Source: Cellvibrio sp. (GTDB lineage: Bacteria; Pseudomonadota; Gammaproteobacteria; Pseudomonadales; Cellvibrionaceae). From it: a stretch of DNA of 64,000 bases. How positions within the stretch are numbered: position 1 is the first letter of the stretch; each line of letters starts with the position of its first letter. Both the position numbers and the translations under genes were made by a program. Shown in pieces: positions 39,353 to 55,583 of the stretch. The DNA is taken from contig DATMSP010000028.1 in the NCBI GenBank assembly GCA_035565295.1, forward strand, positions 91,386-155,385, written 5' to 3'. Below the pieces are notes generated by a model. It saw only the letters and a program-made list of their open reading frames with translations, made no database searches and was not told the origin of the DNA.

Positions 39353-39364
39353 CTCGAGCCTCGC

Positions 39365-39967
39365 ATGCGCCTTTTATCTTTCTCATTGCTATTGCTCGCA
39401 CTCTTGAGCGGCTGCGCCCAACAACCGCAGAAAGTGCAGCCGCCCCTCAATAAAGAAGACTGGGCAAAGCGCCAGGAGCAAATACTCAATATCAGGCACT
39501 GGCAGGCCACTGGCAAGCTGGGGGTCAAAGTGCCCAACGATGGCGGCAGCGCCAGTATCAACTGGCAACAGCACAACAGCGATTATCAGATTGACCTGAA
39601 TGGTCCCCTCGGGCTCGGTAAAATGACTATCAATGGCAAGCCGGATGAAGTCAGCCTGATCCAGGGCGGCAAGCCGCCGCAAAGTGCGAGAACAGCGGAA
39701 GAACTGCTATTGAAAAATACCGGCTGGAGAATTCCCGTGGCCCAGCTCGCCTACTGGGTACGCGGCCTGCCCGCCCCCAAGGCCAAAGTGACCGACTATG
39801 CCTTCAATGAACAGGGTGGACTCAGTGAACTGCAACAGGCCGGCTGGAAAATCAGCTATGGCGACTATCTGCAGACCTCTGCCAATATTCCCCTGCCGGG
39901 GCGCATTACCGCCGAGTTCAATGAGGTGCGCCTGACCCTGGTGATTCGCGAGTGGCAGATACCATGA
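39365..39967 (+). CDS. lolB: Outer-membrane lipoprotein insertase LolB
   Basis: LSGC lipobox, [21 protein letters not shown]. Confidence 0.93.
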
Positions 39968-40821
39968 GCAAACACATCCCCGAGCTGACACTGCTATCCC
40001 CGGCAAAACTCAATTTATTTTTGCACATCACCGGACGCCGCGCCGATGGCTATCACAATCTGCAAACCCTGTTTCAATTGCTGGACTATGGCGATACCCT
40101 CAGCTTTAGCCTGCGCGAGGACTCACAGATTCGCCTAACGCCGGATCTGCCCGGTGTGGATTTTGAAAGCAACCTGATTATCAAGGCCGCGCGTCAATTG
40201 CAGCCTTACAACCAGCGCAAGCTGGGCATTGACATCCAGCTGGAGAAGCGCCTGCCCATGGGCGGCGGCATAGGCGGTGGCAGCAGCAACGCCGCCACCA
40301 CTTTGGTAGCACTCAATCATTTATGGCAGTGCGGCCTCAATCGCCAGCAGTTGCAGCACCTGGGATTGCAGCTGGGCGCCGATGTGCCCGTGTTTATCAA
40401 TGCCCAGACAGCCTGGGCCGAAGGTGTCGGCGAGCAGCTGCAAGCCATTGAATTGCCTCAACAATGGTTTTTAGTTGCACAACCTGACTGCCATGTGTCC
40501 ACCGCTGAAATTTTTTCACATAAAGATTTGACAAGGGACACGCCGGCCATTAAAGTAGCGGCCTTCCTTGAACGGGGTGGCAAAAATGACTGCCAGGCCT
40601 TAGTGAGAAAGCTGTATTCGCCAGTCGATGAAGCCCTTGCACTGCTTGAAAAGTTATCGCCAACCGCAAGAATGACGGGGACTGGAGCCTGCGTATTCGC
40701 AGTATTCAATACCGCAGATGAAGCACTGAAAGCGCAAGCTGAATTGCCCAGACATCTGCCAAGTTTTGTAGCTAAAGGTGTTGCACACTCATCACTCTAC
40801 AACTTGCTTCCCGGCATTTAG
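39964..40821 (+). CDS. ispE: 4-diphosphocytidyl-2C-methyl-D-erythritol kinase
   Basis: [33 protein letters not shown]. Confidence 0.97.
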
Positions 40822-40860
40822 CATTGCGAAGTTTTACACTTCAGATTGTTCAAGATATCT

Positions 40861-40935
40861 AGGGGCGTCGCCAAGTGGTAAGGCAGCGGGTTTTGATCCC
40901 GCCATCCGTAGGTTCGAGTCCTTCCGCCCCTGCCA
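40861..40935 (+). tRNA. tRNA-Gln(TTG)
   Basis: AGGGGCG/CGCCCCT acceptor stem, GCGGG-TTTTGAT-CCCGC anticodon arm, GGTTCGAGTCC, CCA. Confidence 0.97.
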
Positions 40936-41128
40936 TTTTTTTTGAGTCATTGTTCACCAATCAACACCAGCAGTTTACAATGACTATCAATTCTCCCAAG
41001 CAAATCCATCAGCAACAGAGCAGCGAGCAAAGCGCCCGGGAATATCCTAGGGTAAAACACTTTGTTTCGCGAACATCGGCAACATCGACTCCGGCATTTA
41101 TCCCTGGTAATCATAAAAGGTATACGAC

Positions 41129-42070
41129 GTGACTGATCTAATGGTCTTTACCGGCAACGCTAATCCTGATCTTGCCAAAAAAATTGTGGCGCAGTTGGGC
41201 ATGTCCCTCGGCGAAGTTTCAGTATCACAGTTTTCCGATGGTGAAATTGCAGTTGAACTGCACACCAATGTCCGCGGTCGCGATGTCTTTGTAGTGCAAT
41301 CCACCTGTGCGCCCACCAATGACAACCTGATGGAACTGATTGTGATGGTGGATGCCCTGCGCCGCGCCTCTGCCGGTCGCATCACCGCCGTGGTGCCCTA
41401 CTTCGGCTACGCCCGCCAGGATCGCCGCGTGCGCTCGGCGCGCGTCCCCATCACGGCTAAAGTAGTTGCCGATATGATGGTGGGTGTGGGTGTCGACCGC
41501 GTGCTGACGGTAGACCTGCACGCTGAGCAGATCCAGGGCTTTTTCGATGTGCCGGTGGACAACGTTTACGGCTCACCAGTGCTGCTTGAAGATATAGAAG
41601 CGCAACAGTTTGAAGACCTGATTGTGGTATCACCGGATATTGGCGGCGTGGTTCGCGCCCGCGCGGTGGCAAAAGAATTGGGCGTTGACCTGGCGATTAT
41701 CGATAAGCGTCGCCCGAAAGCCGGCATTGCCGAAGTGATGAATATTATCGGCGATGTCTCCGGCCGCACCTGCCTGTTGGTAGACGATATGGTGGATACT
41801 GCCGGCACCCTCTGCAACGCGGCAAAAGCCTTGAAACTCCAGGGCGCAAAACGCGTGGTGGCCTACTGTACCCACCCGGTTCTGTCGGGCAAGGCGGTAG
41901 AAAATTTAAATAATTCCGAGCTGGATGAGCTGGTAGTCACCGACTCTATCCCGCTCAGCGACTCTGTCAAAGCCTGCACCCGCGTGCGCCAGCTGACACT
42001 GTCGAAAATGCTCGCGGAGGCCATGCGCCGCCTGAGCAATGAAGAATCCCTGAGTGCGATGTTTCGCTAA
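41129..42070 (+). CDS. prs: Ribose-phosphate pyrophosphokinase
   Basis: [36 protein letters not shown]. Confidence 0.98.
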
Positions 42071-42114
42071 ATCGCCTCGGATAAACCACCTCGAATATTC
42101 GGGGTTTTAAAAAC

Positions 42115-42143
42115 CTGCCAGGTTCTGGTCGCGGATCTGGCAG
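42115..42143 (+). promoter_or_regulatory. Hairpin in the rplY leader (possible L25 autoregulatory element)
   Basis: ctgccaggttc-tggtcgc-ggatctggcag stem-loop immediately upstream of the rplY RBS. Confidence 0.5.
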
Positions 42144-42163
42144 CATTAACTGAGGAAGTAACC

Positions 42164-42784
42164 ATGTCTGAAGAAGACTTCAAATTAGATGCAACAGCCC
42201 GTAACGACTTGGGGAAAGGTGCGAGCCGCCGCCTGCGTCGTTTGGCAAACCAAGTTCCAGGTGTTATTTACGGCGGCGGTGTTGCGCCAGCCAGCGTTAG
42301 TGTTTCACACAACGAATTGATCAAGCACCTTGAGCACGAAGCGTTCTACTCACACATCATCAGCTTGAATGTTGACGGCAAGGCCCAGGACGTAATCCTG
42401 AAAGACCTGCAACGTCACCCAGCCAAGCCAATTGTGTTGCACGCTGACTTCTTGCGTATCGACAAATCCACTCGCCTGACCACTCACGTACCTCTGCACT
42501 TCATCAATGAAGCGACTTCAAAAGGCGTGAAGATCCAGGGCGGCAAAGTAATTCACAACCTGACGCAAATCGATATCTCCTGCTTGCCACACAACCTGCC
42601 TGAATTTATCGAAGTTGACCTGGCCAACGCTGAAGTCGGCACCATCATCCATATCTCTGACCTGAAACTGCCAAGCGGTGTTACTTCTGTAGCTCTGGCT
42701 CAAGGCGCAGATCACGATCTGGCTGTGGCCACTGTTGTTAAGCCTAAAGGCGGTGCGGAAGAAGAAGCTACTCCAGCAGCTTAA
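42164..42784 (+). CDS. rplY: 50S ribosomal protein L25 (long CTC form)
   Basis: GKGASRRLRR, PGVIYGG, HADFLR. Confidence 0.97.
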   Translation: MSEEDFKLDATARNDLGKGASRRLRRLANQVPGVIYGGGVAPASVSVSHNELIKHLEHEAFYSHIISLNVDGKAQDVILKDLQRHPAKPIVLHADFLRIDKSTRLTTHVPLHFINEATSKGVKIQGGKVIHNLTQIDISCLPHNLPEFIEVDLANAEVGTIIHISDLKLPSGVTSVALAQGADHDLAVATVVKPKGGAEEEATPAA

Positions 42785-42801
42785 TTCTTCGCTTGCCAAT
42801 A

Positions 42802-42836
42802 AAGGGGCAGAAGATTCGTCTTCTGCCCCTTTTTTA
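42802..42836 (+). terminator. Intrinsic terminator
   Basis: aaggggcagaaga-ttcg-tcttctgccccttttttt. Confidence 0.9.
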
Positions 42837-42871
42837 TATTTATTTATTGGATTAGCCATTCAACATCCGCA

Positions 42872-43777
42872 ATGAAGCAATTACTCAGCAATCGCTCAAC
42901 ACAGTTTTATGGATTTGCCTGCATATTTTTCGGCACAGTATTTTTCGCGGCTAAGGGCATAGTGATCAAACTCGCCTATCAGCACGGCATCACCGCCACT
43001 CCCCTGCTGACCTTGCGCATGCTGTTTGCACTGCCGTTTTATGCAGCCATAGCGCTCTGGATACAAACACAAAACCCCACGCCTCTGCGCAGTGGCGAAC
43101 TCTGGAAAATTATTGGCTTGGGATTGCTGAGTTATTACTTATCCAGCTTATTGGATTTTATGGGGCTGCAATATATTTCCGCCGGTCTCGAGCGCCTGAT
43201 TTTATATTTGTATCCGACACTGGTGTTGCTGATACTCGCATTCTACAAACACACTCCCATAGGATTGCGAACCAAAATAGCCCTGGGTATGGCCTATGTC
43301 GGAATACTGATGGTTTTCCTGCAGGATCTGCACCTCACTCACGACTGGAGTCTGACATTATTGGGCAGCGCACTGGTGGTGCTCAGCACGATTTCCTTTG
43401 CGGTATTTGTAGTCCTGGCGGGTAATACGATTCCCCGCGTAGGCTCGACCCGCTTCACCGCCTACGCCATGCTGTCTGCCTGTGGTGGAGTGATGCTGCA
43501 CAGCCTGTTGCTCAGCGGCAGCGATGGTCTGGTACAGCCCCTGCCGGTGTACAGCCTCGCGCTGATATTGGCAATTTTTTGCACGGTGATTCCCAGCTTC
43601 TTGATGAACAAGGGTATCAGTTTGATTGGCAGCGGTCGCGCCGCTGTCCTGGGTGTGTTTGGGCCAGTGGTCACACTGTTTTTGGGCGCGCTATTTTTGC
43701 ATGAACAGATTACACTTATTCAACTTTTCGGTGCAGCGCTGATTATTTCCGGCGTTGCCTTCGCCAGCAAAAAATAA
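42872..43777 (+). CDS. DMT/EamA-family transporter
   Basis: About 10 hydrophobic segments in two EamA repeats; GLQYISAGLERLILYLYP. Confidence 0.9.
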   Translation: MKQLLSNRSTQFYGFACIFFGTVFFAAKGIVIKLAYQHGITATPLLTLRMLFALPFYAAIALWIQTQNPTPLRSGELWKIIGLGLLSYYLSSLLDFMGLQYISAGLERLILYLYPTLVLLILAFYKHTPIGLRTKIALGMAYVGILMVFLQDLHLTHDWSLTLLGSALVVLSTISFAVFVVLAGNTIPRVGSTRFTAYAMLSACGGVMLHSLLLSGSDGLVQPLPVYSLALILAIFCTVIPSFLMNKGISLIGSGRAAVLGVFGPVVTLFLGALFLHEQITLIQLFGAALIISGVAFASKK

Positions 43778-43807
43778 TTGCAAAAAATATGCAGATGAGC
43801 CATTGAT

Positions 43808-44398
43808 ATGACCCAGAACCTTCAACTGATTGTCGGCCTCGGCAATCCCGGCAGCGACTACGATCGCACCCGCCACAATGCCGGTGCCGATTTTGTCGCT
43901 GAGCTGGCTCGCCAGGCAGGCGCCAGCCTCAGTGCCGATCCCAAATATTTCGGCCTCACTGCGCGCATCCTTTACCAGGGCCAGGACCTGCGCCTGCTGA
44001 TTCCCACCACCTATATGAATCGCAGTGGCCAGGCTGTGGGGGCCATGGCCAATTTTTTTAAGATTGAACCCGCTGCCATTCTGGTTGCGCACGATGAACT
44101 GGATCTTGCTCCGGGCACGGCCCGCTTCAAGCAGGGCGGCGGTCATGGCGGTCACAACGGCCTGCGCGATATTATCAGCGCTCTCGGCAATAACCAGAAC
44201 TTTCCCCGCCTGCGCCTCGGCATTGGCCATCCGGGTGCAGCGCCCCTGGTAGCCAACTATGTACTCAAGCGCGCCCCCACCAGCGAGCAAGAATTGATTG
44301 ATGATGCCATTTACCGCGCTAGCAAGAGTTTGCCCGACGCAGTTAAAGGTGATTGGAATAATGCGATGAAAAGTCTGCACACAGAGCCGAAAAAATAA
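43808..44398 (+). CDS. pth: Peptidyl-tRNA hydrolase
   Basis: [26 protein letters not shown]. Confidence 0.98.
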
Positions 44399-44435
44399 TA
44401 TAAGACAGGCTATCAGTGAATGCACGTTGTAGCCC

Positions 44436-44537
44436 GTTTGTCATTGGGGGCTTTTTCGAAAACGCATAAATACTTCCCTGTAGCTCCCTCAAGTCATCCC
44501 TGACTTGAGGGTTTCGAAAAAGCCCCCAATGACAAAC
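44436..44537. repeat. 102-bp palindromic mini-element
   Basis: Perfect 26-bp inverted repeat gtttgtcattgggggctttttcgaaa enclosing the hairpin ccctcaagtca-tccc-tgacttgaggg. Confidence 0.85.
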
Positions 44538-44577
44538 TCATATTGTGCGAAGATCAACTTCGCCAGTGATCTGGGAA

Positions 44578-45138
44578 TTACAATTCATTCTGGATTTTTT
44601 TATAGCCCAGCACCAGGCTAACATTGGTGCGCGCCACGCTTTCAGAAAAGGCTGAGGCCTGGGGGTAGATTGGCGGAAAGCTGCTTAAATCGGTCTTGGG
44701 GCCAATGCGCTCAGTGGAGGGAACATAGAACCCCTCAGGCAGGTCAACGCCATCCACCACCGCGTTATAACGCACCACCACACGATCGTGCAGGTGGCAA
44801 TTGAACAGCACGCTATTGAAACCGATAAACACATCATTGCCCACCTTGCAGGGGCCGTGGACTATAGCCCGGTGCGCAATGGACGTGCGCTCGCCGATGG
44901 TGACAGCGCCACCGGATTTGGAGTGAATCACTACACCATCCTGGATATTGGAGTTTGCCCCTATGACAATCGGTTCCATATCGCCATCATCATCCACTTC
45001 GTCGGCCCGGATCACTGCATAGGGGCCAATAAAGACATTTTCGTGAACCACCACCTTGCCACAGATAATGGCTGTGGGGTCAACGAACGCACTTTCATGC
45101 ACCTGGGGTAAATCGCCGCGCGGGTTCTTGCGAATCAT
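44578..45138 (-). CDS. Gamma-class carbonic anhydrase family protein
   Basis: Hexapeptide repeats, IRADE, NIQDGVVIH, IAH..IVHGP (three Zn-binding His). Confidence 0.9.
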   Translation of the reverse strand: MIRKNPRGDLPQVHESAFVDPTAIICGKVVVHENVFIGPYAVIRADEVDDDGDMEPIVIGANSNIQDGVVIHSKSGGAVTIGERTSIAHRAIVHGPCKVGNDVFIGFNSVLFNCHLHDRVVVRYNAVVDGVDLPEGFYVPSTERIGPKTDLSSFPPIYPQASAFSESVARTNVSLVLGYKKIQNEL

Positions 45139-45232
45139 AGATTACCTCTACTTGTACCAAGGACAGGACAATAGGATCTTGGCACAGCGGCGATCCAGCG
45201 GCAACAAACATTCCTATGCAAAGGCTAGCAAC

Positions 45233-45586
45233 TTAACTATCGCAGATAAACCTCACTGGCTTTTCCCAAATGGCCAGCACTATACAACCCTCCTCACTGA
45301 CAATCTGATGGCTGCTACCGACAGGATTCACCAGAAAACTACCTACTGTGTAGTGCCCGCGCTCATCTCTCTGAGAACCGCGCAGGATCAGCAAAAACTC
45401 TATGCCTGTATGCATATGCCGTGGTATTTCCGCACCTGGGTGATAGCGCAGCAAGGCGCTGGAGCAGCCCTGTGTCGCATCGCCATAGAGCGGGATAATA
45501 TCCACCCCCTCGCGAAAAGGCTGCCAGGCAAAACTGGCATCATCAAAATTCCGGTTTAGCAGATCCTGCCAGACAAGATGCTCCAT
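45233..45586 (-). CDS. ChrR-like cupin protein
   Basis: ALLRYHPGAEIPRHMHTGIE...GSQRDE...NPVGSSH; ATG 45586 follows AGGAG. Confidence 0.85.
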   Translation of the reverse strand: MEHLVWQDLLNRNFDDASFAWQPFREGVDIIPLYGDATQGCSSALLRYHPGAEIPRHMHTGIEFLLILRGSQRDERGHYTVGSFLVNPVGSSHQIVSEEGCIVLAIWEKPVRFICDS

Positions 45587-45594
45587 GCCGACTC

Positions 45595-46278
45595 CTATTT
45601 CGCCAGTGCCGCCAGCAGATCCTGCGAATGGGCGACCGCGCCGAATACGCCCCCCTGCATGCCTATCATCGCCAGGGCCGCCGCGTGATTCGCGGGATCT
45701 GTCGCCGCGCAGCAATCTGCCAGCAGCACACATTCAAAGCCGCGATCATTGGCATCGCGCATGGTGGTATGAACACAGACATCGGTAGTGATGCCGCTGA
45801 GGATAATATTGCGGACACCTTTGGTGTGCAGCACCAGCTCCAGGTCAGTCGCATAGAAAGAACCCTTCCCGGGTTTGTCGATAATGGTTTCACCGGCGAT
45901 GGGTGCGAGTTCAGGGATAATCTCCCAGCCCGGCTCACCGCGCACCAGAATTCTGCCGCAGGGGCCGGGATCACCAATACCCGCGCCGATTTGCCGCGAG
46001 CGCCAGCGCTTGTTGGCGGGCAGATCCGAGAGATCGGGGCGGTGGCCTTCGCGGGTGTGGATAATATGAAACCCAAGTTCGCGCAATCTTTTCAACAGCG
46101 TGGCTATAGGTTCTATAGGTTTGCGGGTGAGTCCAATATCGTACCCCATAGTATCGACATAGCCCCCCACCCCACAAAAATCCGTCTGCATATCAATAAT
46201 CACCAGAGCCGTATTCTCAGGGCGCAAATCGCCATCAAAAGGCCAGGCATAGGGAGTGCTTGGGAGGTAAGTCGCCAC
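45595..46278 (-). CDS. biuH: Biuret amidohydrolase (cysteine hydrolase)
   Basis: [46 protein letters not shown] and MQGGVFG closely follow Rhizobium BiuH as I recall it. Confidence 0.88.
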
Positions 46279-46298
46279 TATAAAATCTCCTTAAAAGG

Positions 46299-47873
46299 TT
46301 AAGCTGCCGAACTCGGTTCAATCTCTTCTGTATGCGGTGCCCGCTGGTCAACCACACTCACTTTGGCACAGGCAAACAATAGGCAGGCCACCACTACATA
46401 GGCGAAAGCAACTGCAGGAGTCTCGCCTATACCTATGGCCTCGCCGTGCATAAAGCCAAAGAAAGTCAGCACCGCGCTGGTCAGCGAAAATGCCGCCGCT
46501 TTGACAAAGCTGCGATCAATGATAAATGCAGTGATAGCACCCAGCATCAGCCCGCCCAAAATGGCTCCGCCACCCAGCACCGACAGCCCGTGATAGAGAA
46601 TGCCAGTCTGCCCCAGCTTATCCAGGCCCACGGCAACCGCATTGGTGCCCGCCGCCCCCAGGGCGCTGTCGATTTGCAGTTTTCCCCAGGCGGCAAGATG
46701 CGGCATAAGTGCCACCACAATTGCCGGGGCATGCACCTTGGGTGATTCCTGGAATGCCTGGGAGCCGATCAGCATGCCGATATAGAGCAGGATGGGAGAG
46801 ATAGCGACTACAGGAATCAGCGATGAAAACACCGCGATAATACCCAGCCAACAGAGCACTAACACAGTGACGCCCGTCGCTGCGGAATAGCCAATGCGCC
46901 CACCCATGGATTTCCAGCCGGGATGGCCAATGTAAACCGCATTGATAAAAGGATTGCCCATACAGCAGCCAATCAAGCTGATGACACCATCTGCGGTGAG
47001 CACACGCGTGGTGGGAAAACTATCGCCCGCTACCGATGCACTCTCAACGTTATCCATAGCTTCAACGAGATCGTAAATCCCAAAGGGAATCGCCGTAACC
47101 AAAATAATGCCGATAAATTCAAAGCCAGAAAAAACATGGCCGATAGCAGGTAGAGGAATTGAACAACCAAAACTGGTTACAGACTGGGTGAGTTTATCGA
47201 GGGTCAGGCCACCATAATTCAACCCCATGGCCGTTGAACCCCACGCAATCAAAGTACCCACAGCAATAGCCACAAGCCCCGCAGGAATACCTTTGAAATA
47301 ACGCACACCGCCAAACCAGCTCAACAGAATGATGGCAAAACACACTACACCTATCACCGGTGTCATAAACATTTCCAGCGCTGGGCGCAGAGAGATAAAC
47401 GCAATGGATACACCCGCAAGGGTGCCGAGCAATGCTGCGCGCGGAGTAATCTTACGGATATAGGGAGCGAGATAACCGCCCAGCATCAATACAAAACTTT
47501 GCACAAACACCCACGTCAGCCCCGCCTCCCAACCTTTTACCGGATCGCCCGAGGTAATGCTAATCGGTAGCATAATGACAAAAATAACCACAAACATATG
47601 CGGCACACTGATGCCCGACGGCAGTGCGCAGACATCGGTTCGCCCGGTCTCCTTTGCCAGCTTGTAGGCGAGCCACGCGTAATAAATTGTGCTGATGCAC
47701 AGCATCAAACCCACCGCAGGCAGTATGCGGCCAAACACAATCTCATCCGGCATTTTCAGCACAAAACGCAGTAGACCTGTGAGTACGAGTAAGTTGACCA
47801 GGATGTTGGTGCCGAAGCCAAAGAAAGCATTCCAATCTCCTGGCACCCAGACGGAGGGTTTCATTGTTTGCAT
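46299..47873 (-). CDS. NCS2/xanthine-uracil-type permease, candidate triuret/biuret transporter
   Basis: WVPGDWNAFFG, ALPSG, TPRAALLGTLAG, NVESA..AGD, YIGHPGWK; more than 12 TM segments; ATG 47873 follows GGAGA. Confidence 0.8.
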   Translation of the reverse strand: MQTMKPSVWVPGDWNAFFGFGTNILVNLLVLTGLLRFVLKMPDEIVFGRILPAVGLMLCISTIYYAWLAYKLAKETGRTDVCALPSGISVPHMFVVIFVIMLPISITSGDPVKGWEAGLTWVFVQSFVLMLGGYLAPYIRKITPRAALLGTLAGVSIAFISLRPALEMFMTPVIGVVCFAIILLSWFGGVRYFKGIPAGLVAIAVGTLIAWGSTAMGLNYGGLTLDKLTQSVTSFGCSIPLPAIGHVFSGFEFIGIILVTAIPFGIYDLVEAMDNVESASVAGDSFPTTRVLTADGVISLIGCCMGNPFINAVYIGHPGWKSMGGRIGYSAATGVTVLVLCWLGIIAVFSSLIPVVAISPILLYIGMLIGSQAFQESPKVHAPAIVVALMPHLAAWGKLQIDSALGAAGTNAVAVGLDKLGQTGILYHGLSVLGGGAILGGLMLGAITAFIIDRSFVKAAAFSLTSAVLTFFGFMHGEAIGIGETPAVAFAYVVVACLLFACAKVSVVDQRAPHTEEIEPSSAA

Positions 47874-47992
47874 AGCGGTCTCTCCAAATACTTCAGGGGC
47901 AAGTGGGGTTAAGTTGCATCGCACTGTTCGAGTAAACCTAAGACTTTCTGAAAAAATTTGTGCAATAACACAAACCATTTCTCGAAAAATTT

Positions 47993-48679
47993 CTAGCTTG
48001 TTTCTAACGCATTCTTAATCGCCGCAATCACCGCATCGGAGGTGGCGACCCAGCCAAAAATACCTCCCTGGGCGGTGATCATGCGCAATCCTATTTCGTG
48101 GAACTCGGGAAAATAGGAGCTGCAGGCATCGCTGACAGCCACACAGCGATAGCCGCGATCATTGGCCTCGCGCACAGTGGTATGGACACAGACTTCCGTG
48201 GTCACGCCGCAGACCAGCAGGTTTTCTATCGCCCTGGCCTGCAACTGCTCCTGTAAATCCGTATGATAAAAAGCACCCTTCCCAGGTTTATCAATCACCA
48301 GCTCACCCTCCCTGGGCGCCAACTCAGGAATAATTCCATGGCCCGGTTCGCCACGGACCAGGATGCGCCCCATGGGGCCAGGACTGCCGATACGCAGCGA
48401 GGGTTTGCCGCGCTCCACCTTGGCCGCCGGGGCATCGGATAAATCCGGCAGATGCCCCTCGCGAGTATGGATAATTGTCATCTTCGCGAGCCGCGCTGCG
48501 GCCAGCAGCTTTTTGCAGGGCTCTATGCAAGTGCGCAACAGACTCACATCGTTGCCGAGGCTTGCCCCAAAGCCGCCGGGCTCAAGAAAATCGCGCTGCA
48601 TATCGATAATAACCAGCGCGGCGCAGCTCATATCCAGGGCTATAGCCTCCGGCTTGGCCGCCAGCAATTGCCTGCTCAT
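47993..48679 (-). CDS. trtA: Triuret hydrolase-like cysteine hydrolase
   Basis: [51 protein letters not shown] and AQGGIFGW match TrtA-type rather than BiuH-type signatures; clustered with biuH. Confidence 0.8.
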
Positions 48680-48701
48680 AGACATCTCCTCTGCGACTCA
48701 A

Positions 48702-49772
48702 CTAAAAGCGGAAACGCCCACCCAGACCCAGGGTATCGCCCGACTCCTCTGCCAATTCGGGATCATCGCTGGTATAACCCGCGTAGAAGTCGAGCTTTTT
48801 GCTGAGCGGCAGGTTGTACATAAGGGTGTAGATACTGCGATCGTAATCACCTGCCTGGGTGTCAGTTTTGGTAAGGCCATAGCCCAGGTAAATAGCGCCC
48901 TTGCCGACCGCAAGCGACGCACTCAGCACCAGCGTATCCCGATCTATATCGCCCGCAGCCAGATCATCCTCCATCACCTGGTACTGGGCATAAAAGCTGT
49001 GACCTCCCAGGGCATAGCTGACCCCGACTATGGCATCTGTCTGACTGTCATCCGCAGGTAGGCCAAGTGCGCCCGGCTGGGGGCCGGAGATTTTTTGCAG
49101 TGCGGCAGTAAAACCAAAATCGCCCGCCTTATAAAAAGTATTGGCGGCCACTTTATGGGTACTGGTATCCCCCTCTTCTTCACCAAAGGCATAGGCAAGG
49201 CTGCTGGTAAAACCGGCCAGCTCGGGCGTGGAATACACCAGCGAATCGCTCCAGCCGGTGTCGCCATAGAGGCCACCGCCCCCGAAGCTCATCAGCACCA
49301 TGGGCGAGAAGGAAAATGAATCGCCAAAGGGATTGAAGAGAATGGAAGATAGAAAATAGAGGCTGGCATTGCGCCCCACAGTGAACTGGCCAAAATCGCC
49401 CTTGAGCCCAAAGTTGGCGGCGCGGGCAAACATAATATCGTCTTCAAAACGCCCCATTTCACCGGAATCTGGCCGCATAAACATTTCTACAGCGGCTATT
49501 GCCGTCAAGCCACCATCCAGCTCATGGCTGCCGTGAACCCCCAGATAAGACGTGGTCAAGCCATTGGACTGCACACCGACAGTCTCTTCGCTATCCTCAT
49601 CACCTGCAGGCTTGTTGTAACCCAGGTAAGTATCCAGTTCACCAACAAAAGTCAGGCTGGAATCTGCCAGGCAGGCAGCGCTAAGGGTCGACAGAAGAGC
49701 TGCGCTGCAAGCAGCCGCCAACCATTGCCGCTGTCTCAAGTTGCCGGTAGCGGTGTTGTGATCAAATATCAT
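48702..49772 (-). CDS. Gram-negative porin
   Basis: Signal peptide, GLKGDFGQFTVGR, YSTP.LAG, terminal aromatic RFRF; ATG 49772 follows GAGGAG. Confidence 0.88.
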   Translation of the reverse strand: MIFDHNTATGNLRQRQWLAAACSAALLSTLSAACLADSSLTFVGELDTYLGYNKPAGDEDSEETVGVQSNGLTTSYLGVHGSHELDGGLTAIAAVEMFMRPDSGEMGRFEDDIMFARAANFGLKGDFGQFTVGRNASLYFLSSILFNPFGDSFSFSPMVLMSFGGGGLYGDTGWSDSLVYSTPELAGFTSSLAYAFGEEEGDTSTHKVAANTFYKAGDFGFTAALQKISGPQPGALGLPADDSQTDAIVGVSYALGGHSFYAQYQVMEDDLAAGDIDRDTLVLSASLAVGKGAIYLGYGLTKTDTQAGDYDRSIYTLMYNLPLSKKLDFYAGYTSDDPELAEESGDTLGLGGRFRF

Positions 49773-49828
49773 GGATATCTCCTCGCTGGTCAGCTGCGAG
49801 TGAGGCCAAGCAGGCACTCACACTATTT

Positions 49829-49856
49829 AATTCAACGTTGTATACATCGTTGAATT
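49829..49856. promoter_or_regulatory. GntR-type operator palindrome
   Basis: aattcaacg-t-TGTATACA-t-cgttgaatt: 28 bp with one mismatched pair, overlapping the predicted +1. Confidence 0.75.
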
Positions 49857-49857
49857 T

Positions 49858-49873
49858 TGCACAAGCTGTGCCA
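49858..49873 (-). promoter_or_regulatory. Sigma54 -24/-12 promoter of the porin-trtA-biuH operon
   Basis: Reverse strand TGGCACagcttGTGCA with GG-N10-GC spacing. Confidence 0.85.
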
Positions 49874-49902
49874 GAGCTGAGGAAAAGCTCCAAGCTGTTA
49901 TT

Positions 49903-49915
49903 CAAGCAATTGATT
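49903..49915 (-). promoter_or_regulatory. IHF site
   Basis: AATCAAttgcTTG matches WATCAANNNNTTR, about 30 bp upstream of -24. Confidence 0.65.
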
Positions 49916-49992
49916 TATGTGGTCTTTTAGATAAAGTGAGAAGCCATGGCAAAAATAGGCGGACTAAAAGCCAGCCAAGATGGCACCAAGAG

Positions 49993-50028
49993 ACAACTTG
50001 AAGGTGCTACCCTGCACTGCTTAAGGGC
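49993..50028. promoter_or_regulatory. Two degenerate NtrC-like enhancer sites
   Basis: ACAAC-N5-GGTGC (49993) and GCACT-N5-AGGGC (50014), 21 bp apart, versus consensus GCACC-N5-GGTGC. Confidence 0.45.
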
Positions 50029-50252
50029 GAAATTAGCTGAGAGATAAGGCTCTGCCTGCGCGAACAATGGAGCCAAGCTTCCGCGAATCCAAAATCCTCA
50101 CTCAACCTGTCCATAACGCCAGCCGATGATAAGGCGCTGCGTTAAATACTGGCTGAAGCAAAGGAAATAATTTCCCCACGCAAGACAACTCGCCCTGCGG
50201 TAGAAGAAATCTCAGCTTTCAATTTATAGATACAACATAAAGGACATATTTT

Positions 50253-52913
50253 ATGCACGCTGTAGAAGTCACCATCGACCTCAACACAACCCCCTGTCAG
50301 CTTGCTGAAATTGCAAATATAGAAACAACAACATCCATACGCTTTGACAATTGTGCCGGCACAGTAGCCATTCCACAGGAACTCAATCAGTACCCCAATA
50401 TCACTGCACTCCATTTCTCCGGCGGGAATAACGAAGCTCTGTATAAACTCCCGGAAAATCTCGATCAATTCCTTTATATCAAGGTGCTAACCCTATGGAG
50501 TTTTTGTGACTTCTCCACAGTAAAATCCCTGAACCACCTGGAAGAACTCTATGTAGTGGTGAAAGACCCCCAGGAAGAGGTGAGGCAAATTGCCAGGCTT
50601 TTTCCTCAGCTCAAGAAGCTGGAACTATGGGGAGAGCGTGAAACATTAAAAGATAGAGGCTTGAGTGAGGCTGTAGGCAAACTTGCAGCGCTGGAGTATT
50701 TGCACCTGGTCTCCTGCAATGTGAAAGAACTGCCGGAGTCTATGGCAAACCTCGACAACCTGCGCGAACTCGATTTGCGAGGTCTGCCAATGAACCAGTT
50801 CCCTGAAGTGGTGACACGATTGAAAAACCTTGAGCGCCTGAGGATACAACAACGTTTCGCGGAACTGCCTGAAAGCCTGTGCAATCTGCAAAAGCTTACA
50901 CTGCTCGACCTGACAAGCTCGTTGAATGAAGGCACTATGAGTGTGACAGAAGAAGATATGGCAATGGAGAAAATGTGTTTAAAGCCTATTCCCGATGTCA
51001 TTGGAAGATTACACAATCTGGAAGATTTGACCTTGGATATGTGCGGTGTTTTTGATATCCACCCTATTGCCTCACTGCATAAACTCAAAAAATTAAGCAT
51101 ACGGTATAGCGCGCTTAAACATTGCGAGGGTTTTTCGGCATTTTCTGCGCTGGAAATCCTGCATATGGAAAACAGCTATGACCTGCAGGATTTGAGTGGC
51201 CTGGAGGGATTGCCACTTCATGATCTCGACATAAGCTTCTGCAACAGCCCATCGCTCGCAGTGCTCAACACCCTTCCAACGCTGGAAACATTGAATATCT
51301 CTGGCTGCCGCAAGCTGATTGACCCTTCACCTGTTTACCTCCACCCAAGGCTAAGGTATTTGGAGGCGGAAGATAAACTTCTTGAACAATGGGAAAAAAG
51401 GGCGAAATTTGCAAATCTACCTGCAGTGCAAACCCTGGTTCAGAAACTGCAGAGCGACGATATAGATACGTTTGAAGAGTCCATCTTTTTTCTGGAAAAG
51501 CATGTAGATATGGCATTCAATGGCGGTCGAAATCCACTGCCAGACTTTTTTCAGGTTGAAGCAGGAGAATTAGAAGAGATTACCAGTTTGCCAGCACTGG
51601 ATGAATTTATTACCAGGCATATAAAAAGTCTCCGCAATGAAACACTGGAAAATATATTTAGCATGACATTTCGATCCATAGATTGCGATCATTTTAAAGC
51701 GACCTTGCTGGTACTGGATGAGGTTGTAGCGCGAAGAGATATAGCCCTTCAAAAACGAATCTTTGATGCGTTCCTTTGCGCAATGGAAAAAGAATTTGAA
51801 GAGTATATCTATAGCCAGAACACCCTATACACCCAAGTAAAAGGCCATTATTTTCCGCAGTTTTCATCACATTCGCTGATTTACCTATTAGAAAAGGCTG
51901 ATATCTTCGAGTTAATTAGCAGCGGATGCCTGCAATTGGATACACTGTTTCTGCCAGCCCTCCAAAACACAGAGGACGACGCCGTTTATAAAAAGCTGAT
52001 AGAGATTTTATTTGATTATAAAGCCAAGTCTGACAATGCGGTTGGAGAAGAGTCCTTTGCAGAACTTATCACTGACTTGCTGGCACACACTTCGGGACGC
52101 GTCCGCGCACTGCTCGCATCCCAATACCAAGTGAGCCAGCAAGAGAACAGCACCACTAGCCTGTTAAGGAATTGTACAGAAGCAGACCTGCCTCGCATCA
52201 TTGGCATGCTGGGAGCAGAAATATCCAGTGAACAGTGGCAAGAATTTGGCTCCGGAATCCTTCAAATCATGAACAAAACTGTATTGCCGGATGAATGGGT
52301 AGTCGACACTCTTCATTTTCTGGGCAATCAGGAGGATACAGATCGCAACATCGGCGATCTGCTGGCCCAGCAATGGCACAACCGCTCCCCCGCTAAAAGC
52401 ATCGCCTTTTTACAGGATCTGTTGACTCAGAAAAAAAGAAGTCAGCAGGATATTTTTGCCATTATCCGATACGTGTTTATGGCGCTGCACAATTCACCGA
52501 GCTCATTTGCAGAGCTGGAAATCTACCGGCATTTTCTGTTGCAATCCTGCCATATTTCAAGCACTGATCAATACACTCATGAAATAGCAATACTGCTGAG
52601 AAAAGCGTTCAATAATGATCGCTCACTGTCAGAACACAGCATTGCCCAATTGTTGGTTCGGGTAGAAGAAATCGTTGCACATATAGCGGATGAAATTGAG
52701 TTCAATGATTACGACCTGGAGTTCGAAACAGGCTTACTCGCCGAATTCGACGAGTTTACAGAAATTCGCTGGATGTATCGCACACTCTCGCCTAAATTTA
52801 AAGAGTTCAAGTCTGAATCAATGTTACAGCTGAACCTGCTAGCGGCGATCAAATTAAATGACAAATCATTTTTAGATTCAATTAATACGCAGCTCAGCAA
52901 AATCAAAAATTAG
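50253..52913 (+). CDS. Leucine-rich-repeat protein with a helical C-terminal region
   Basis: Repeats such as LPESMANLDNLRELDL, LPESLCNLQKLTLLDL and IPDVIGRLHNLEDLTL in the first ~370 aa; no signal peptide; AAGGA RBS. Confidence 0.88.
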   Translation: MHAVEVTIDLNTTPCQLAEIANIETTTSIRFDNCAGTVAIPQELNQYPNITALHFSGGNNEALYKLPENLDQFLYIKVLTLWSFCDFSTVKSLNHLEELYVVVKDPQEEVRQIARLFPQLKKLELWGERETLKDRGLSEAVGKLAALEYLHLVSCNVKELPESMANLDNLRELDLRGLPMNQFPEVVTRLKNLERLRIQQRFAELPESLCNLQKLTLLDLTSSLNEGTMSVTEEDMAMEKMCLKPIPDVIGRLHNLEDLTLDMCGVFDIHPIASLHKLKKLSIRYSALKHCEGFSAFSALEILHMENSYDLQDLSGLEGLPLHDLDISFCNSPSLAVLNTLPTLETLNISGCRKLIDPSPVYLHPRLRYLEAEDKLLEQWEKRAKFANLPAVQTLVQKLQSDDIDTFEESIFFLEKHVDMAFNGGRNPLPDFFQVEAGELEEITSLPALDEFITRHIKSLRNETLENIFSMTFRSIDCDHFKATLLVLDEVVARRDIALQKRIFDAFLCAMEKEFEEYIYSQNTLYTQVKGHYFPQFSSHSLIYLLEKADIFELISSGCLQLDTLFLPALQNTEDDAVYKKLIEILFDYKAKSDNAVGEESFAELITDLLAHTSGRVRALLASQYQVSQQENSTTSLLRNCTEADLPRIIGMLGAEISSEQWQEFGSGILQIMNKTVLPDEWVVDTLHFLGNQEDTDRNIGDLLAQQWHNRSPAKSIAFLQDLLTQKKRSQQDIFAIIRYVFMALHNSPSSFAELEIYRHFLLQSCHISSTDQYTHEIAILLRKAFNNDRSLSEHSIAQLLVRVEEIVAHIADEIEFNDYDLEFETGLLAEFDEFTEIRWMYRTLSPKFKEFKSESMLQLNLLAAIKLNDKSFLDSINTQLSKIKN

Positions 52914-53163
52914 ATGGGAAAAAGCTTGATACTCCCGCGTGGGGACAATGGCAACGTTCGGCGATGGCAGCGCAGTCATTTTGAGGCTTTTCGAGGCGCA
53001 GTCAGCACTGCCGTATTTACCTCACCCAGTCGTTGATAGTGGAGGAATGGCAAGGCTGTTTACAAGTGGGATGGGGTCGCCTACCATGCAGCCAATAAGG
53101 TCATTTATCGCTATCCGAATGATGCAATTTGCTGTGACCGGTCCAACTCACGGAGCATTACTC

Positions 53164-53844
53164 TTGGCAAAATCCGCCGCGCAACTGGTCTACGATCAGC
53201 TTAAACAAAAAATCATCGACTTCGAGATTTACCCAGGTACGCGCATCACCGAGTCGGAGATTGCGGAGGATTTCCAGGTCAGCCGCACCCCGGTGCGCGC
53301 CGCTCTGCAGCGCCTGGAAACCGAGGGGCAGATCACCATTATGCCCAAGCAGGGCTGCTTCGTGCGCTCGGTGGATATCGAGACCATCAGCCAGTATTAC
53401 GATGTGCGCATCAGCCTGGAGGCCACCGCTGTAGAGCTGGCCTGCGACCATATGAGCGACGAAGACCTGGATGCGCAGCAGGAAGTCTGGAACCCGGAGC
53501 GAGTGGACGAAAACCTGGATCTGGAGGATATGGAAGAGATCAAGGCGAGGGAAGAGGCCTTTCACATAGGTATCGCCCTGGGCAGCGGCAATCTTGTACT
53601 GGCCAATTATCTGCGCGATATCAACAACCATATCCGCATACTGCGCCGCCTGGGCTTCCCTGACCGCCAGGCAGTGATAGAAACCTGCGAAGAACACTAT
53701 GCCATCTGCCAACTGATCCGCGAGCACAACAAAACCCAGGCGCGCCGGGCCATGACCAAGCATATACGCAAAAGCCAGGAGCTGGCCCGCAGCGTCACCC
53801 TAAGCCAGTTGCAACAGGCCATCAAACGCCACAAACCCCTGTAA
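53164..53844 (+). CDS. GntR/FadR-family (FCD) transcriptional regulator
   Basis: PGTRITESEIAEDFQVSRTPVRAALQRL wHTH, FH...EH...HI FCD motifs; TTG 53164 follows GGAG. Confidence 0.93.
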   Translation: MAKSAAQLVYDQLKQKIIDFEIYPGTRITESEIAEDFQVSRTPVRAALQRLETEGQITIMPKQGCFVRSVDIETISQYYDVRISLEATAVELACDHMSDEDLDAQQEVWNPERVDENLDLEDMEEIKAREEAFHIGIALGSGNLVLANYLRDINNHIRILRRLGFPDRQAVIETCEEHYAICQLIREHNKTQARRAMTKHIRKSQELARSVTLSQLQQAIKRHKPL

Positions 53845-53931
53845 TCTGCCAGTCGCGTCTTGCCGCCCATAACGGTATAATGCCGCCCCTCACTATATCA
53901 GCACCTCTCTTTATCAAAACGGTACAACATC

Positions 53932-55023
53932 ATGGGTTTCAATTGCGGCATAGTCGGCCTTCCCAACGTCGGCAAATCAACACTGTTCAATGCACTGACC
54001 AACGCCGGTATCAGCGCAGAAAACTTTCCCTTCTGCACCATTGAACCCAATGCCGGCATAGTGACCGTGCCCGACCCGCGCCAGGATATGCTGGCGGAAA
54101 TCGTCAAGCCCGAGCGCGTGGTAGCCACCACCATGGAATTTATCGATATCGCCGGTATTGTTGCCGGTGCATCCAAAGGCGAAGGCCTGGGCAATAAATT
54201 CCTCGCCAATATCCGCGAGACCGATGCCATCGCCCACGTAGTGCGCTGCTTTGATGACGACAACGTGATCCACGTGGCCAACGCGGTCAATCCCGCCGCC
54301 GATATAGATGTGATCAATACCGAGCTGGCACTGGCCGATCTCGAAGCCGTGGACAAAGCCATCAATCGCTATGCAAAGGCAGCGAAGGGCCAAGACAAAC
54401 ACGCCATGGCCATGAAGGCCCTGCTGGAAAAAATCCAGCCACACTTGAACGAGGCCAAGCCACTGCGCTCATTCAGCCTGAGCAAAGAAGAAATTGCACT
54501 GCTGAAAGAAATCAACCTACTCACGCTGAAACCCACCATGTATATCGCCAACGTGGCCGAAGATGGTTTTGAAAATAATCCCCACCTGGAAGTCGTGCGC
54601 AAAATTGCCGCCGAAGAAAAATCCGTGGTGGTGCCCATCTGCAACAAGCTTGAGGCGGATATCGCTGAACTTGAAGGCGAAGACAAAGCCGAATTCCTTG
54701 CCGAAATGGGCATGGAAGAACCCGGCCTCAACCGCGTGATACGCGCTGGCTATAACTTGCTGGGCCTCCAGACTTACTTCACCGCCGGCGTAAAAGAAGT
54801 GCGCGCCTGGACCATTCCTATAGGTGCTACAGCACCGCAGGCAGCGGGCGTTATCCACACAGATTTTGAAAAGGGTTTTATCCGCGCAGAGACCATAGCC
54901 TACGAAGATTTTGTGCAGTACAAGGGCGAACAGGGTGCAAAAAATGCGGGGAAAGCGCGCAAAGAAGGTAAGGATTATGTTGTGAAGGATGGCGATGTGC
55001 TGCACTTTTTATTTAATGTCTAA
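53932..55023 (+). CDS. ychF: Redox-regulated ATPase YchF
   Basis: [31 protein letters not shown] domain. Confidence 0.98.
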
Positions 55024-55066
55024 CGGCATCACCCACTCCATTCCTCTTTTTTAAAACTGCAAAAGC

Positions 55067-55100
55067 TAAATTAAGCCGTTAATCCTGACGGCTTAATTTA
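55067..55100 (+). terminator. Terminator-like hairpin
   Basis: taaattaagccgtta-atcc-tgacggcttaattta followed by T-rich sequence. Confidence 0.7.
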
Positions 55101-55583
55101 TTGTATTTTTTGACGCTCGGCTATAGGCCATTGAAATAAGCCAAGCCAAAATGCCATCCGGCGACAACGCCAAGTACAAATAGAATTGCGGTAACCACAT
55201 CGTTCATATGCAGTTGATTAGACATATTTTCTGATCCAAAATAGTTTCTAGAAATCCCGCATCAGCACAAAGCGGCCCTGCCATAAACAATAGCTTTGGT
55301 AGCGTTTCGACTCCAACGGCTTAGCTTAACCACCACCCAAAACAACTTCAATCCCCTCTTGTTGCAAATGTTGTGCAACAAGAGCTGCGAGATCAACACC
55401 AGTTTTGCTGCTGAAACTCATTGCTTTCCTGCCTCTTTGACAGTCTTGCGAATGGTCAGCAAGGGTTTACACGCTTGCCACTGTCGCGTGCGCTGCGCTA
55501 ACAGGCAATTTATTACCTATTGATGGCAAGGCTGCGACCTTCACTCCATAATGCAGCACATTATCACCACCCCCTAAAAATAT

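What the first reader, a model, noticed from the sequence alone, without database searches (positions are those of the whole stretch)
44578..49772. Triuret/biuret catabolic operon with an unusual tail: cupin plus gamma-carbonic anhydrase, and no allophanate hydrolase or AtzH/DUF3225 gene
Seen: six co-oriented genes (porin, cysteine hydrolase, NCS2-like permease, second cysteine hydrolase, cupin, gamma-CA). Known: the two hydrolases carry TrtA-type (DMQRDFxxxGGFG, TTEVC) and BiuH-type ([12 protein letters not shown], TTDVC) signatures. TrtA converts triuret to carboxybiuret and BiuH converts biuret to allophanate; both products are N-carboxylated. Inference: the operon provides a dedicated porin plus secondary-transporter uptake route. 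The cupin and/or gamma-CA may act on the N-carboxy intermediates or the released CO2/bicarbonate, a job normally assigned to AtzH/DUF3225-type proteins or allophanate hydrolase, neither of which is in this window. This is my best candidate for an undescribed pathway variant.
Basis: partly seen in the sequence, partly recalled or inferred. Interest (0 to 1): 0.8.

Follow-up and report, generated by a model that had tools for sequence, protein, structure and literature searches.

The report
Cupin likely replaces triuret-pathway decarboxylase
This gene cluster likely lets a bacterium import triuret and biuret (small urea chains) and strip their nitrogen by a known route; its small, unstudied, predicted metal-binding cupin protein likely does the job of a known CO2-removing enzyme not found in this genome, while the neighbouring carbonic anhydrase is likely a passenger.

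Summary
The six co-oriented genes are real. The hydrolases match TrtA (15 of 15 published residues) and BiuH (14 of 14; over the NCBIfam cut-off). Allophanate hydrolase is present, on another contig beside urea carboxylase. The gamma-carbonic anhydrase occurs in 0 of 160 related loci, is absent from the two syntenic relatives, and 8 of 9 orthologues sit among zinc-starvation genes.

The cupin is a real pathway member. It lies beside trtA, biuH or the permease in 72 of 80 loci, and never shares a genome with an AtzH/TrtB-family gene (0 of 80; 0 of 43 in an independent sample). It takes the slot after trtA that AtzH-like genes take elsewhere, and is fused to TrtA in four proteins. It also ends the biuH-atzD-trtA operon of Rhizobium leguminosarum 3841.

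Best reading (about 0.55, untested): a metal-dependent carboxybiuret decarboxylase unrelated to TrtB. The exclusivity is confounded by lineage, and key papers could not be read. The scan noted this cupin before on other DNA (9 findings).

The parts
49858..49874 (-). sigma-54 type -24/-12 promoter site, 85 nt upstream of the porin start (consensus pattern recalled; function predicted)
   Evidence: strict pattern occurs 5 times in 3.66 Mb; relaxed pattern found upstream of the first gene in 11 of 19 related loci
48702..49772 (-). Gram-negative porin; likely outer-membrane entry; a Tsx-family channel takes its place in other loci
   Evidence: Porin_4 E 8e-45; porin in 3 and Tsx-like cluster in 8 of 80 permease loci
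47993..48685 (-). TrtA-type triuret hydrolase
   Evidence: best PDB hit 6XIX, 283 bits vs at most 240 for BiuH chains; 15 of 15 published TrtA residues; below the BiuH model cut-off, 265 vs 370
46299..47873 (-). uncharacterised secondary transporter, predicted UraA/SLC23/SLC26-type fold; likely triuret/biuret importer
   Evidence: no Pfam or NCBIfam hit; model pLDDT 61.7, best Foldseek hit SVCT1 E 1.7e-5, TM 0.48; TrtA-type gene in 65 of 80 loci
45595..46278 (-). BiuH biuret hydrolase
   Evidence: NF050097 418 bits, cut-off 370; 14 of 14 published BiuH residues; 72.5% identical to R. leguminosarum 3841 BiuH
45233..45586 (-). ChrR-type cupin, 117 aa, with His57-His59-Glu63-His93 metal motif; likely carboxybiuret decarboxylase
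44578..45138 (-). gamma-carbonic anhydrase of the Cam/PA5540 type; likely passenger inserted behind the operon
   Evidence: Cam-like hits; His72/89/94; 0 of 160 related loci; absent in L099 and L100
44437..44541 (.). about 105-bp palindromic dispersed repeat between pth and the gamma-CA
   Evidence: 4 further copies in the genome at 83-92% identity; absent from L099 and L100
50253..52913 (+). 886-aa leucine-rich-repeat gene, low G+C (0.446), inserted between the promoter and gntR; not part of the pathway
   Evidence: LRR Pfam hits; no match in any other locus held; absent from L099 and L100
53122..53844 (+). GntR/FCD regulator, divergent; likely the operon's regulator, displaced by the LRR insertion
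   Evidence: divergent orthologue (46-89% identity) upstream of the operon in 13 of 80 permease loci; adjacent to the operon in L099 and L100

Best explanation
The five genes porin-trtA-permease-biuH-cupin likely form a nitrogen-scavenging operon in which the cupin is likely a metal-dependent carboxybiuret decarboxylase that replaces the AtzH-family enzyme TrtB, while the gamma-carbonic anhydrase is likely a later passenger. Predicted route: triuret or biuret enters through the porin and the permease (inferred from gene context). TrtA removes ammonia to give carboxybiuret (family chemistry shown in PMC7948467; assignment here from residues). The cupin removes CO2 to give biuret, speeding a step whose spontaneous half-life is about 20 min (inferred). 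BiuH gives allophanate and ammonia. AtzF, encoded on another contig beside urea carboxylase, finishes the job (gene present; use in trans inferred). Proposed chemistry, from my own reasoning: a divalent metal on His57/His59/Glu63/His93 binds the biuret carbonyls and acts as an electron sink, as in metal-assisted beta-keto-acid decarboxylation. A sigma-54 site and a divergent GntR likely control expression.
For: Hydrolase identity. Cupin dedication: 72 of 80 metagenome cupin loci hold trtA, biuH or the permease, 37 of 37 among loci with at least 2.5 kb upstream; 0 of 20 lower-scoring cupin paralogues have such genes within about 3 kb. Exclusivity with PF11533: in 80 genomes cupin 40, AtzH-like 21, both 0. 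In an independent draw of 400 Pseudomonadota, among 27 BiuH genomes: cupin 9, AtzH-like 16, both 0, neither 2. Slot swap: bmpA-nupBC-biuH-nupA-trtA is followed directly by the cupin in 9 genomes and by an AtzH-like gene in 2. Fusions: 4 TrtA-cupin proteins, 2 of them checked for and carrying the TrtA signature. The cupin tracks BiuH (38 of 40 cupin genomes over cut-off), as expected if its product is useful only where biuret can be consumed. It ends the biuH-atzD-trtA operon of R. leguminosarum 3841, where two enzymes make carboxybiuret and the plasmid has no PF11533 gene. Passenger status of the gamma-CA; PMC13261364 and PMC4542158 passages.
Against: No activity was measured. Genomes are not independent: in the second sample 6 of 9 cupins fall in one family and only family f60 holds both states. 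Many AtzH-like hits lie beside an AtzE-like amidase or far from biuH, so they need not be TrtB. Neither gene is required: 14 of 57 and 2 of 27 BiuH genomes have neither, and the step occurs spontaneously. Where trtA and biuH are separated, the cupin follows biuH (G366, G384, G431, G435). It is also fused to the AtzF C-terminal domain (P0129, L139), which points to later steps too. Closest solved structures are ChrR cupin domains and dioxygenases, not decarboxylases. Monophyly of the subfamily was not shown. TrtB's own sequence was not tested.
Confidence: 0.55

Rival explanations
1. The cupin acts later: it decarboxylates allophanate to urea, or breaks down the N-carboxycarbamate/carbamate left by AtzF.
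For: It follows biuH directly in 15 of 20 permease loci that hold it, here with an 8-nt gap, and stays with biuH when trtA is elsewhere. It is fused to or followed by an orphan AtzF C-terminal domain (P0129, L139, L147, L154, L168). L175 has urease-like ORFs downstream (read from translations).
Against: Full-length atzF directly follows the cupin in 7 of 9 operons; turning allophanate into urea would be a dead end there (PMC6219798 passages). Genomes on the AtzE/AtzH route also make allophanate, yet 0 of them carry the cupin. Four TrtA fusions. This genome has no urease.
Confidence: 0.17
2. The cupin is a non-catalytic ligand or metal sensor, like the ChrR cupin domain, that modulates GntR or the enzymes.
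For: Best sequence and fold matches include ChrR cupin domains; databases name it 'anti-sigma factor ChrR'.
Against: It lacks the anti-sigma domain and scores far below the ChrR cut-off (51 vs 124.5). A sensor would not exclude a decarboxylase, yet overlap with AtzH-like genes is 0. It is fused to enzymes, not regulators.
Confidence: 0.1
3. The cupin is an oxygenase that makes triuret or biuret from a purine-breakdown product such as allantoate, upstream of TrtA.
For: Fold neighbours include the C-C cleaving dioxygenases DAD and Dke1. Partner transporters belong to nucleoside/nucleobase-type families (Tsx, Bmp ABC, UraA-like fold). The natural source of triuret is unknown (PMC7948467).
Against: Does not explain exclusivity or slot swap with AtzH-like genes. 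It tracks BiuH more than TrtA. No purine-catabolic genes recur among the neighbour clusters that were annotated.
Confidence: 0.07
4. One reading: the gamma-CA is a working member of the operon, clearing CO2/bicarbonate or acting on N-carboxy intermediates.
For: Co-oriented, 94 nt behind the cupin, with a good ribosome-binding site. No terminator-like site was called in that gap and no Zur-like box lies upstream, so read-through in this one genome is possible.
Against: 0 of 160 related loci; absent from syntenic L099 and L100; 8 of 9 orthologues in zinc-starvation contexts and 1 beside cbbQ; closer to G262 (78%) than to same-genus G011 (64%); flanked by a dispersed repeat.
Confidence: 0.06

Closest known systems
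Triuret pathway TrtA-TrtB-BiuH-AtzF of Herbaspirillum sp. BH-1 (PMC7948467; parts 1-5 of 6 read, supplement searched)
   Same: TrtA and BiuH with all diagnostic residues; GntR regulator; AtzF present in the genome.
   Different: No TrtB/AtzH-family gene found; cupin instead. Porin plus secondary transporter instead of an ABC cassette. atzF is unlinked.
Rhizobium leguminosarum (johnstonii) 3841 pRL10 operon, source of the characterised BiuH (PMC5806882 passages)
   Same: biuH, trtA and the same cupin subfamily (WP_011654383.1; 46% identity over 95 aa, 111.5 bits); no PF11533 gene on the plasmid.
   Different: 3841 uses a Bmp-type ABC importer and adds atzD and a formamidase; its cupin follows trtA rather than biuH.
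AtzH/TrtB/HpxZ (DUF3225, PF11533; NTF2 fold) decarboxylases (PMC6219798 passages; PMC12625717 Fig. S11 legend)
   Same: Proposed job: removing CO2 from an unstable N-carboxy ureide; same gene slot in some operons.
   Different: Unrelated fold. AtzH uses a Tyr/Arg pocket; the cupin has a 3His-1Glu metal motif.
ChrR cupin-like domain (PF12973) and the dioxygenases DAD and Dke1
   Same: Fold (TM 0.71-0.74) and His/His/Glu/His motif.
   Different: Stand-alone 117-aa protein, at most about 31% identity; subfamily-typical Gln72 and Cys101; tied to ureide operons.
PaCAgamma1/PA5540 gamma-carbonic anhydrase of the Zur-regulated folE2-PA5540-pyrC2 operon (PMC13261364, PMC4542158 passages)
   Same: Orthologues of the window's gamma-CA sit in the same folE2/dihydroorotase/cobW/dksA contexts; three His retained.
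   Different: Here it is detached from that context and has no Zur-like box upstream. PA5540 itself was not aligned.

Membership tests
TrtA triuret hydrolase | Catalytic triad D24/K129/C162 and substrate residues F29, E72, K132, T158, Q202 | tested here: met
   D28, K133, C166, F33, E76, K136, T162, Q206 (numbering from PMC7948467)
TrtA triuret hydrolase | TrtA-versus-BiuH discriminating residues F35, N41, A134, E160, Y187, I205 | tested here: met
   6 of 6
TrtA triuret hydrolase | Triuret hydrolysis with about 10^4-fold preference over biuret | not testable with these tools
   needs an assay
BiuH biuret hydrolase | NCBIfam NF050097 over the curated cut-off | tested here: met
   418.3 vs 370 bits
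BiuH biuret hydrolase | D36, F41, Y47, Y53, K142, K145, S147, D173, C175, Q215, V218 | tested here: met
   14 of 14 positions checked; groups with 3841 BiuH, support only 74 in a quick tree
Canonical trt operon (trtA, trtB, biuH, atzF, ABC, GntR) | trtB/AtzH-family decarboxylase gene | tested here: not met
   no PF11533 match in G000, 87% complete
Canonical trt operon (trtA, trtB, biuH, atzF, ABC, GntR) | allophanate hydrolase available | tested here: met
   unlinked atzF, 845 bits
Canonical trt operon (trtA, trtB, biuH, atzF, ABC, GntR) | ABC importer in the operon | tested here: not met
   single permease plus porin instead
AtzH/TrtB (PF11533) - for the cupin | NTF2 fold / PF11533 match | tested here: not met
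   cupin fold, pLDDT 92; lowers 'is a TrtB', not 'works like TrtB'
AtzH/TrtB (PF11533) - for the cupin | Accelerates decarboxylation of carboxybiuret | not testable with these tools
   only genomic evidence
ChrR anti-sigma factor | N-terminal anti-sigma domain; TIGR02451 over cut-off | tested here: not met
   51 vs 124.5 bits, model positions 113-202 only
NCS2/NAT (SLC23) transporter | Pfam PF00860 or PDB sequence match | tested here: not met
   no hit; nearest named Atlas cluster PF00860 at 0.89, a lead only
NCS2/NAT (SLC23) transporter | UraA-type fold | tested here: inconclusive
   model pLDDT 61.7; top hits SVCT1, SLC26Dg, UraA at TM 0.37-0.48
Gamma-carbonic anhydrase (Cam/PA5540 type) | Hexapeptide beta-helix with three metal-binding His | tested here: met
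   below all NCBIfam equivalog cut-offs
Gamma-carbonic anhydrase (Cam/PA5540 type) | CO2 hydration activity | not testable with these tools
   shown for PA5540 in PMC13261364, not for this protein

The most novel reading that the evidence does not exclude
The cupin is an oxygen-using metalloenzyme that makes triuret (or biuret) from a purine-breakdown product such as allantoate and hands it to TrtA. That would give the first enzymatic source of triuret and explain why these widespread operons carry nucleoside-type transporters. The better-supported novel reading (about 0.55) is a cupin-fold carboxybiuret decarboxylase, a second and unrelated solution to the TrtB step.
Probability: 0.07. Interest if true: 0.85.

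Novelty: new variant of a known kind. Interest (0 to 1): 0.5.

Why it matters
The literature names a gap. PMC12625717 says comammox Nitrospira carry trtA and biuH without trtB, and that the step is done by 'an unidentified enzyme' or spontaneously. This cupin is a concrete candidate for such an enzyme; whether comammox carry it was not tested. It is common: 9 of 27 BiuH-bearing Pseudomonadota sampled, 137 plasmid records (121 Rhizobium), and cyanobacteria, myxobacteria and Verrucomicrobiota. It sits in the model strain from which BiuH was characterised, so a published NMR assay can test it directly. If right, it is a new N-decarboxylase chemistry for the cupin fold and corrects a widespread 'ChrR anti-sigma' label. 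The permease family is also an uncharacterised candidate importer for compounds present in urea fertiliser. The gamma-CA angle should be dropped.

Tried and rejected
Gamma-CA as pathway member: rejected (see rivals). 'No allophanate hydrolase': a window artefact.

Riboswitch or structured RNA: Rfam over 38000-56000 gave only a tRNA and one chance hit. Sigma-70 promoter scan: 4 sites against 5.8 expected. Cyanuric acid hydrolase in G000: no match, but the control rang nowhere, so uninformative.

Expression: one RNA run shared 6% of words and gave scattered contigs; no conclusion on co-transcription.

Cupin tree (125 rows, 116 columns): quick tree only, controls on long branches, one-clade test unfinished; monophyly neither shown nor rejected. 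Invariance of Gln72 and Cys101 (105 of 105 vs 2 and 4 of 20) is partly circular, because the metagenome search patterns required both.

Atlas search for the cupin gave only Cupin_7 clusters. Sequence and profile searches of the PDB for the permease gave nothing. No Nitrospira genome handle was available, so comammox was not checked. No complex prediction was run, since binding is not claimed.

Papers not held: Aukema 2020, Cameron 2011, Tassoulas 2021 AEM. Robinson 2018 was not attempted (no PMC id listed). A search for the AtzF C-domain function found nothing relevant.
Full report
OBSERVATION. Six minus-strand ORFs lie between pth and an LRR gene, inside the ispE-prs-rplY-pth-ychF region: porin 48702-49772, hydrolase 47993-48685, permease 46299-47873, hydrolase 45595-46278, cupin 45233-45586, gamma-CA 44578-45138. 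Pfam gives Porin_4, Isochorismatase twice, no family for the permease, Cupin_7 and Hexapep. The closest named relatives are Cellvibrionaceae.

HYDROLASES. The first has Herbaspirillum TrtA (6XIX) as best PDB hit and matches 15 of 15 positions named in PMC7948467, including all six that separate TrtA from BiuH. The second passes the NCBIfam BiuH cut-off (418 vs 370), matches 14 of 14 BiuH positions, and is 72.5% identical to R. leguminosarum 3841 BiuH. A quick tree puts the BiuH-like rows on one side of a branch, with support of only 74; the residue signatures separate the two types cleanly.

WHAT IS MISSING. The genome (87% complete) has atzF over the cut-off directly upstream of a urea carboxylase, and a second urea carboxylase elsewhere. 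It has no PF11533 match and no urease. So the only step without a known gene is carboxybiuret to biuret, which TrtB catalyses elsewhere and which runs spontaneously with a half-life of about 20 min (PMC7948467). That TrtB belongs to the AtzH/DUF3225 family I take from the Fig. S11 legend of PMC12625717 and from PMC6219798; I did not test the TrtB sequence.

GAMMA-CA. It was found in 0 of 80 loci around the permease and 0 of 80 loci around the cupin. Orthologues at 64-78% identity occurred in 3 of 60 relatives and 6 of 300 phylum genomes. Within 1.5 kb, 8 of these 9 have folE2, dksA, cobW, ZrgA, an ABC-3 permease, hisI, Fur or a dihydroorotase-like gene, and 1 has cbbQ; none has trtA, biuH or the cupin. 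This is the context of P. aeruginosa PA5540, an active gamma-CA in a Zur-regulated operon (passages). The two closest syntenic relatives, L099 and L100, run pth-cupin-biuH-permease-trtA-channel-gntR-ychF with under 40 nt between the cupin and pth, and no gamma-CA, repeat or LRR gene. A 105-bp palindrome with four more genomic copies flanks the gamma-CA. Read-through is not excluded: no terminator-like site was called in the 94-nt gap, no Zur-like box was found, and RNA data were uninformative.

CUPIN: ASSOCIATION. It was in 20 of 80 permease loci (one partial), directly after biuH in 15. Searching the other way, 72 of the best 80 metagenome cupin loci held trtA, biuH or the permease; the other 8 have under 400 bases upstream; 37 of 37 loci with at least 2.5 kb upstream and 0.5 kb downstream were positive. 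Twelve of those 80 had an AtzF match: 8 to the amidase part and 4 to the C-terminal domain only. None had AtzH. The cupin occurs with both transporter types, permease and Bmp-type ABC. As control, 20 lower-scoring Cupin_7 hits (51-80 bits, chosen by me from the 29 listed) had no pathway gene within about 3 kb.

CUPIN: EXCLUSIVITY. In the 80 genomes behind the permease loci, 40 had the cupin (125 bits or more; next 79; one partial copy not counted), 21 had PF11533 over cut-off, and 0 had both (Fisher p 3e-8). Among the 57 with BiuH over cut-off: 38 cupin, 5 AtzH-like, 14 neither, 0 both (p 0.003). Most of these are metagenome-assembled genomes of unknown completeness. One, G395, is unpublished; leaving it out changes nothing. 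An independent draw of 400 Pseudomonadota at 90% completeness or more gave 43 genomes with a hydrolase hit, 27 with BiuH. Of the 27: cupin 9 (104-149 bits; next 69), AtzH-like 16, neither 2, both 0. The p-values overstate: six of the nine cupins are in one family, and only f60 has both states.

CUPIN: POSITION AND FUSIONS. In 35 fetched regions, bmpA-nupB-nupC-biuH-nupA-trtA is followed directly by the cupin in all 9 cupin genomes of the independent sample and by an AtzH-like gene in G319 and G523. G439 and G327 also carry AtzH-like genes in the operon without an AtzE-like amidase. Other AtzH-like genes sit beside such an amidase (8 regions) or far from biuH, and may serve the AtzE route or another pathway. 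atzF directly follows the cupin in 7 of 9. A search of longer proteins (7998 candidates scored) found five fusions: four TrtA-cupin and one cupin-AtzF C-domain; L139 is a second of the latter kind. Against a pure TrtA link, the cupin stays with biuH where the two hydrolases are apart (G366, G384, G431, G435). Plasmids gave 137 records, 121 from Rhizobium. On pRL10 of strain 3841 the order is gntR / bmpA, two permeases, formamidase, biuH, atzD, ATPase, trtA, cupin. The plasmid has no PF11533 match, and the cupin scores 111.5 bits. The chromosome was not searched.

CUPIN: STRUCTURE. The model (pLDDT 92) is a single cupin barrel. Nearest solved structures are unknown-function cupins, ChrR cupin domains, DAD and Dke1 dioxygenases, at 18-31% identity. 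His57, His59, Glu63 and His93 are invariant in 105 of 105 rows and also in 20 of 20 controls, so the metal site is intact but not diagnostic. Cupin precedents for decarboxylation and ureide chemistry (oxalate decarboxylase, ureidoglycolate lyase, AllE) are recalled and come from no call. The electron-sink mechanism is my inference.

TRANSPORT AND CONTROL. The permease family is conserved (71-89% identity across several phyla), with a TrtA-type gene in 65 and BiuH in 28 of 80 loci. A moderate model matches SVCT1, SLC26Dg and UraA. The outer-membrane channel is interchangeable between Porin_4 and Tsx types. A sigma-54 site lies 85 nt upstream of the porin and recurs in 11 of 19 related regions examined. 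The GntR at 53122-53844 is the operon's usual divergent neighbour, pushed 2.7 kb away here by the LRR gene.

LITERATURE. Read: PMC7948467 (parts 1-5 of 6; supplement searched); PMC12625717 (passages, section 8 part 1 of 2, supplement searched, part 3 of file 1 read); passages of PMC5806882, PMC6219798, PMC13261364 and PMC4542158. Searches for 'biuret hydrolase'+cupin, triuret+cupin and 'cyanuric acid'+atzD+cupin gave 0 papers. 'Cupin' does not occur in the main texts of PMC12625717, PMC5806882 or PMC6219798, or in the two supplements searched. The TrtB paper (Aukema 2020) and two others were not held, Robinson 2018 was not read, and figures are not visible, including the gene map of strain 3841 in Fig. 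S1 of PMC7948467. Prior notice of this cupin cannot be excluded.

EARLIER SCAN NOTES. The first look-up gave nothing. After my analysis, searches showed 9 findings on other genomes with this cupin, several calling it unexplained or a possible replacement for a known enzyme. They are unchecked and add no evidence.

VERDICT. A known pathway in a variant layout. The gamma-CA and 'no atzF' points fall away. The cupin is a conserved, uncharacterised member whose distribution, position and fusions best fit a TrtB analogue (0.55). Interest 0.5.

Noticed in passing
window 50253-52913 (+): 886-aa LRR protein, G+C 0.446, no paralogue in the genome and no match in any other locus held; inserted between the operon promoter and its GntR. 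Only sub-cut-off matches to LRR family models.
   Followed up: partly
window 44437-44541: About 105-bp palindromic element with an inner hairpin; four more copies in the genome (C2, C30, C33, C13); REP- or MITE-like.
   Followed up: partly
L042, L043, L061, L073 (Methylophilus): gntR-amidase-AtzH-like-trtA-permease with no BiuH over cut-off in those genomes: a likely triuret route through AtzE/AtzH chemistry that bypasses biuret.
   Followed up: partly
P0127, P0128, P0130, P0131; P0129 and L139:3578-4414: Natural TrtA-cupin fusions and cupin-AtzF C-domain fusions; orphan AtzF C-domain genes follow the cupin in L147, L154 and L168.
   Followed up: partly
L234:17065-18081 (pRL10): A formamidase-annotated nitrilase-family gene sits directly before biuH in the 3841 operon; it could hint at a formylated ureide substrate.
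   Followed up: no
G000 C26:42285-45878 and C61:9886-15226: Two urea-carboxylase-family genes over the cut-off; only the C61 copy is next to atzF. The other may be a guanidine carboxylase (not checked).
   Followed up: no
L017, L018, L027, L028, L029, L031, L038, L039, L041 (Myxococcota): The same permease family with a LysR gene upstream and, in most, no hydrolase within the locus; trtA and biuH lie elsewhere in most of these genomes.
   Followed up: partly
L128, L132, L134, L136: Broken trtA and a permease remnant directly before an intact-looking cupin: decaying operons.
   Followed up: no
window 40861-40932 (+): tRNA between ispE and prs (Rfam); ordinary.
   Followed up: no
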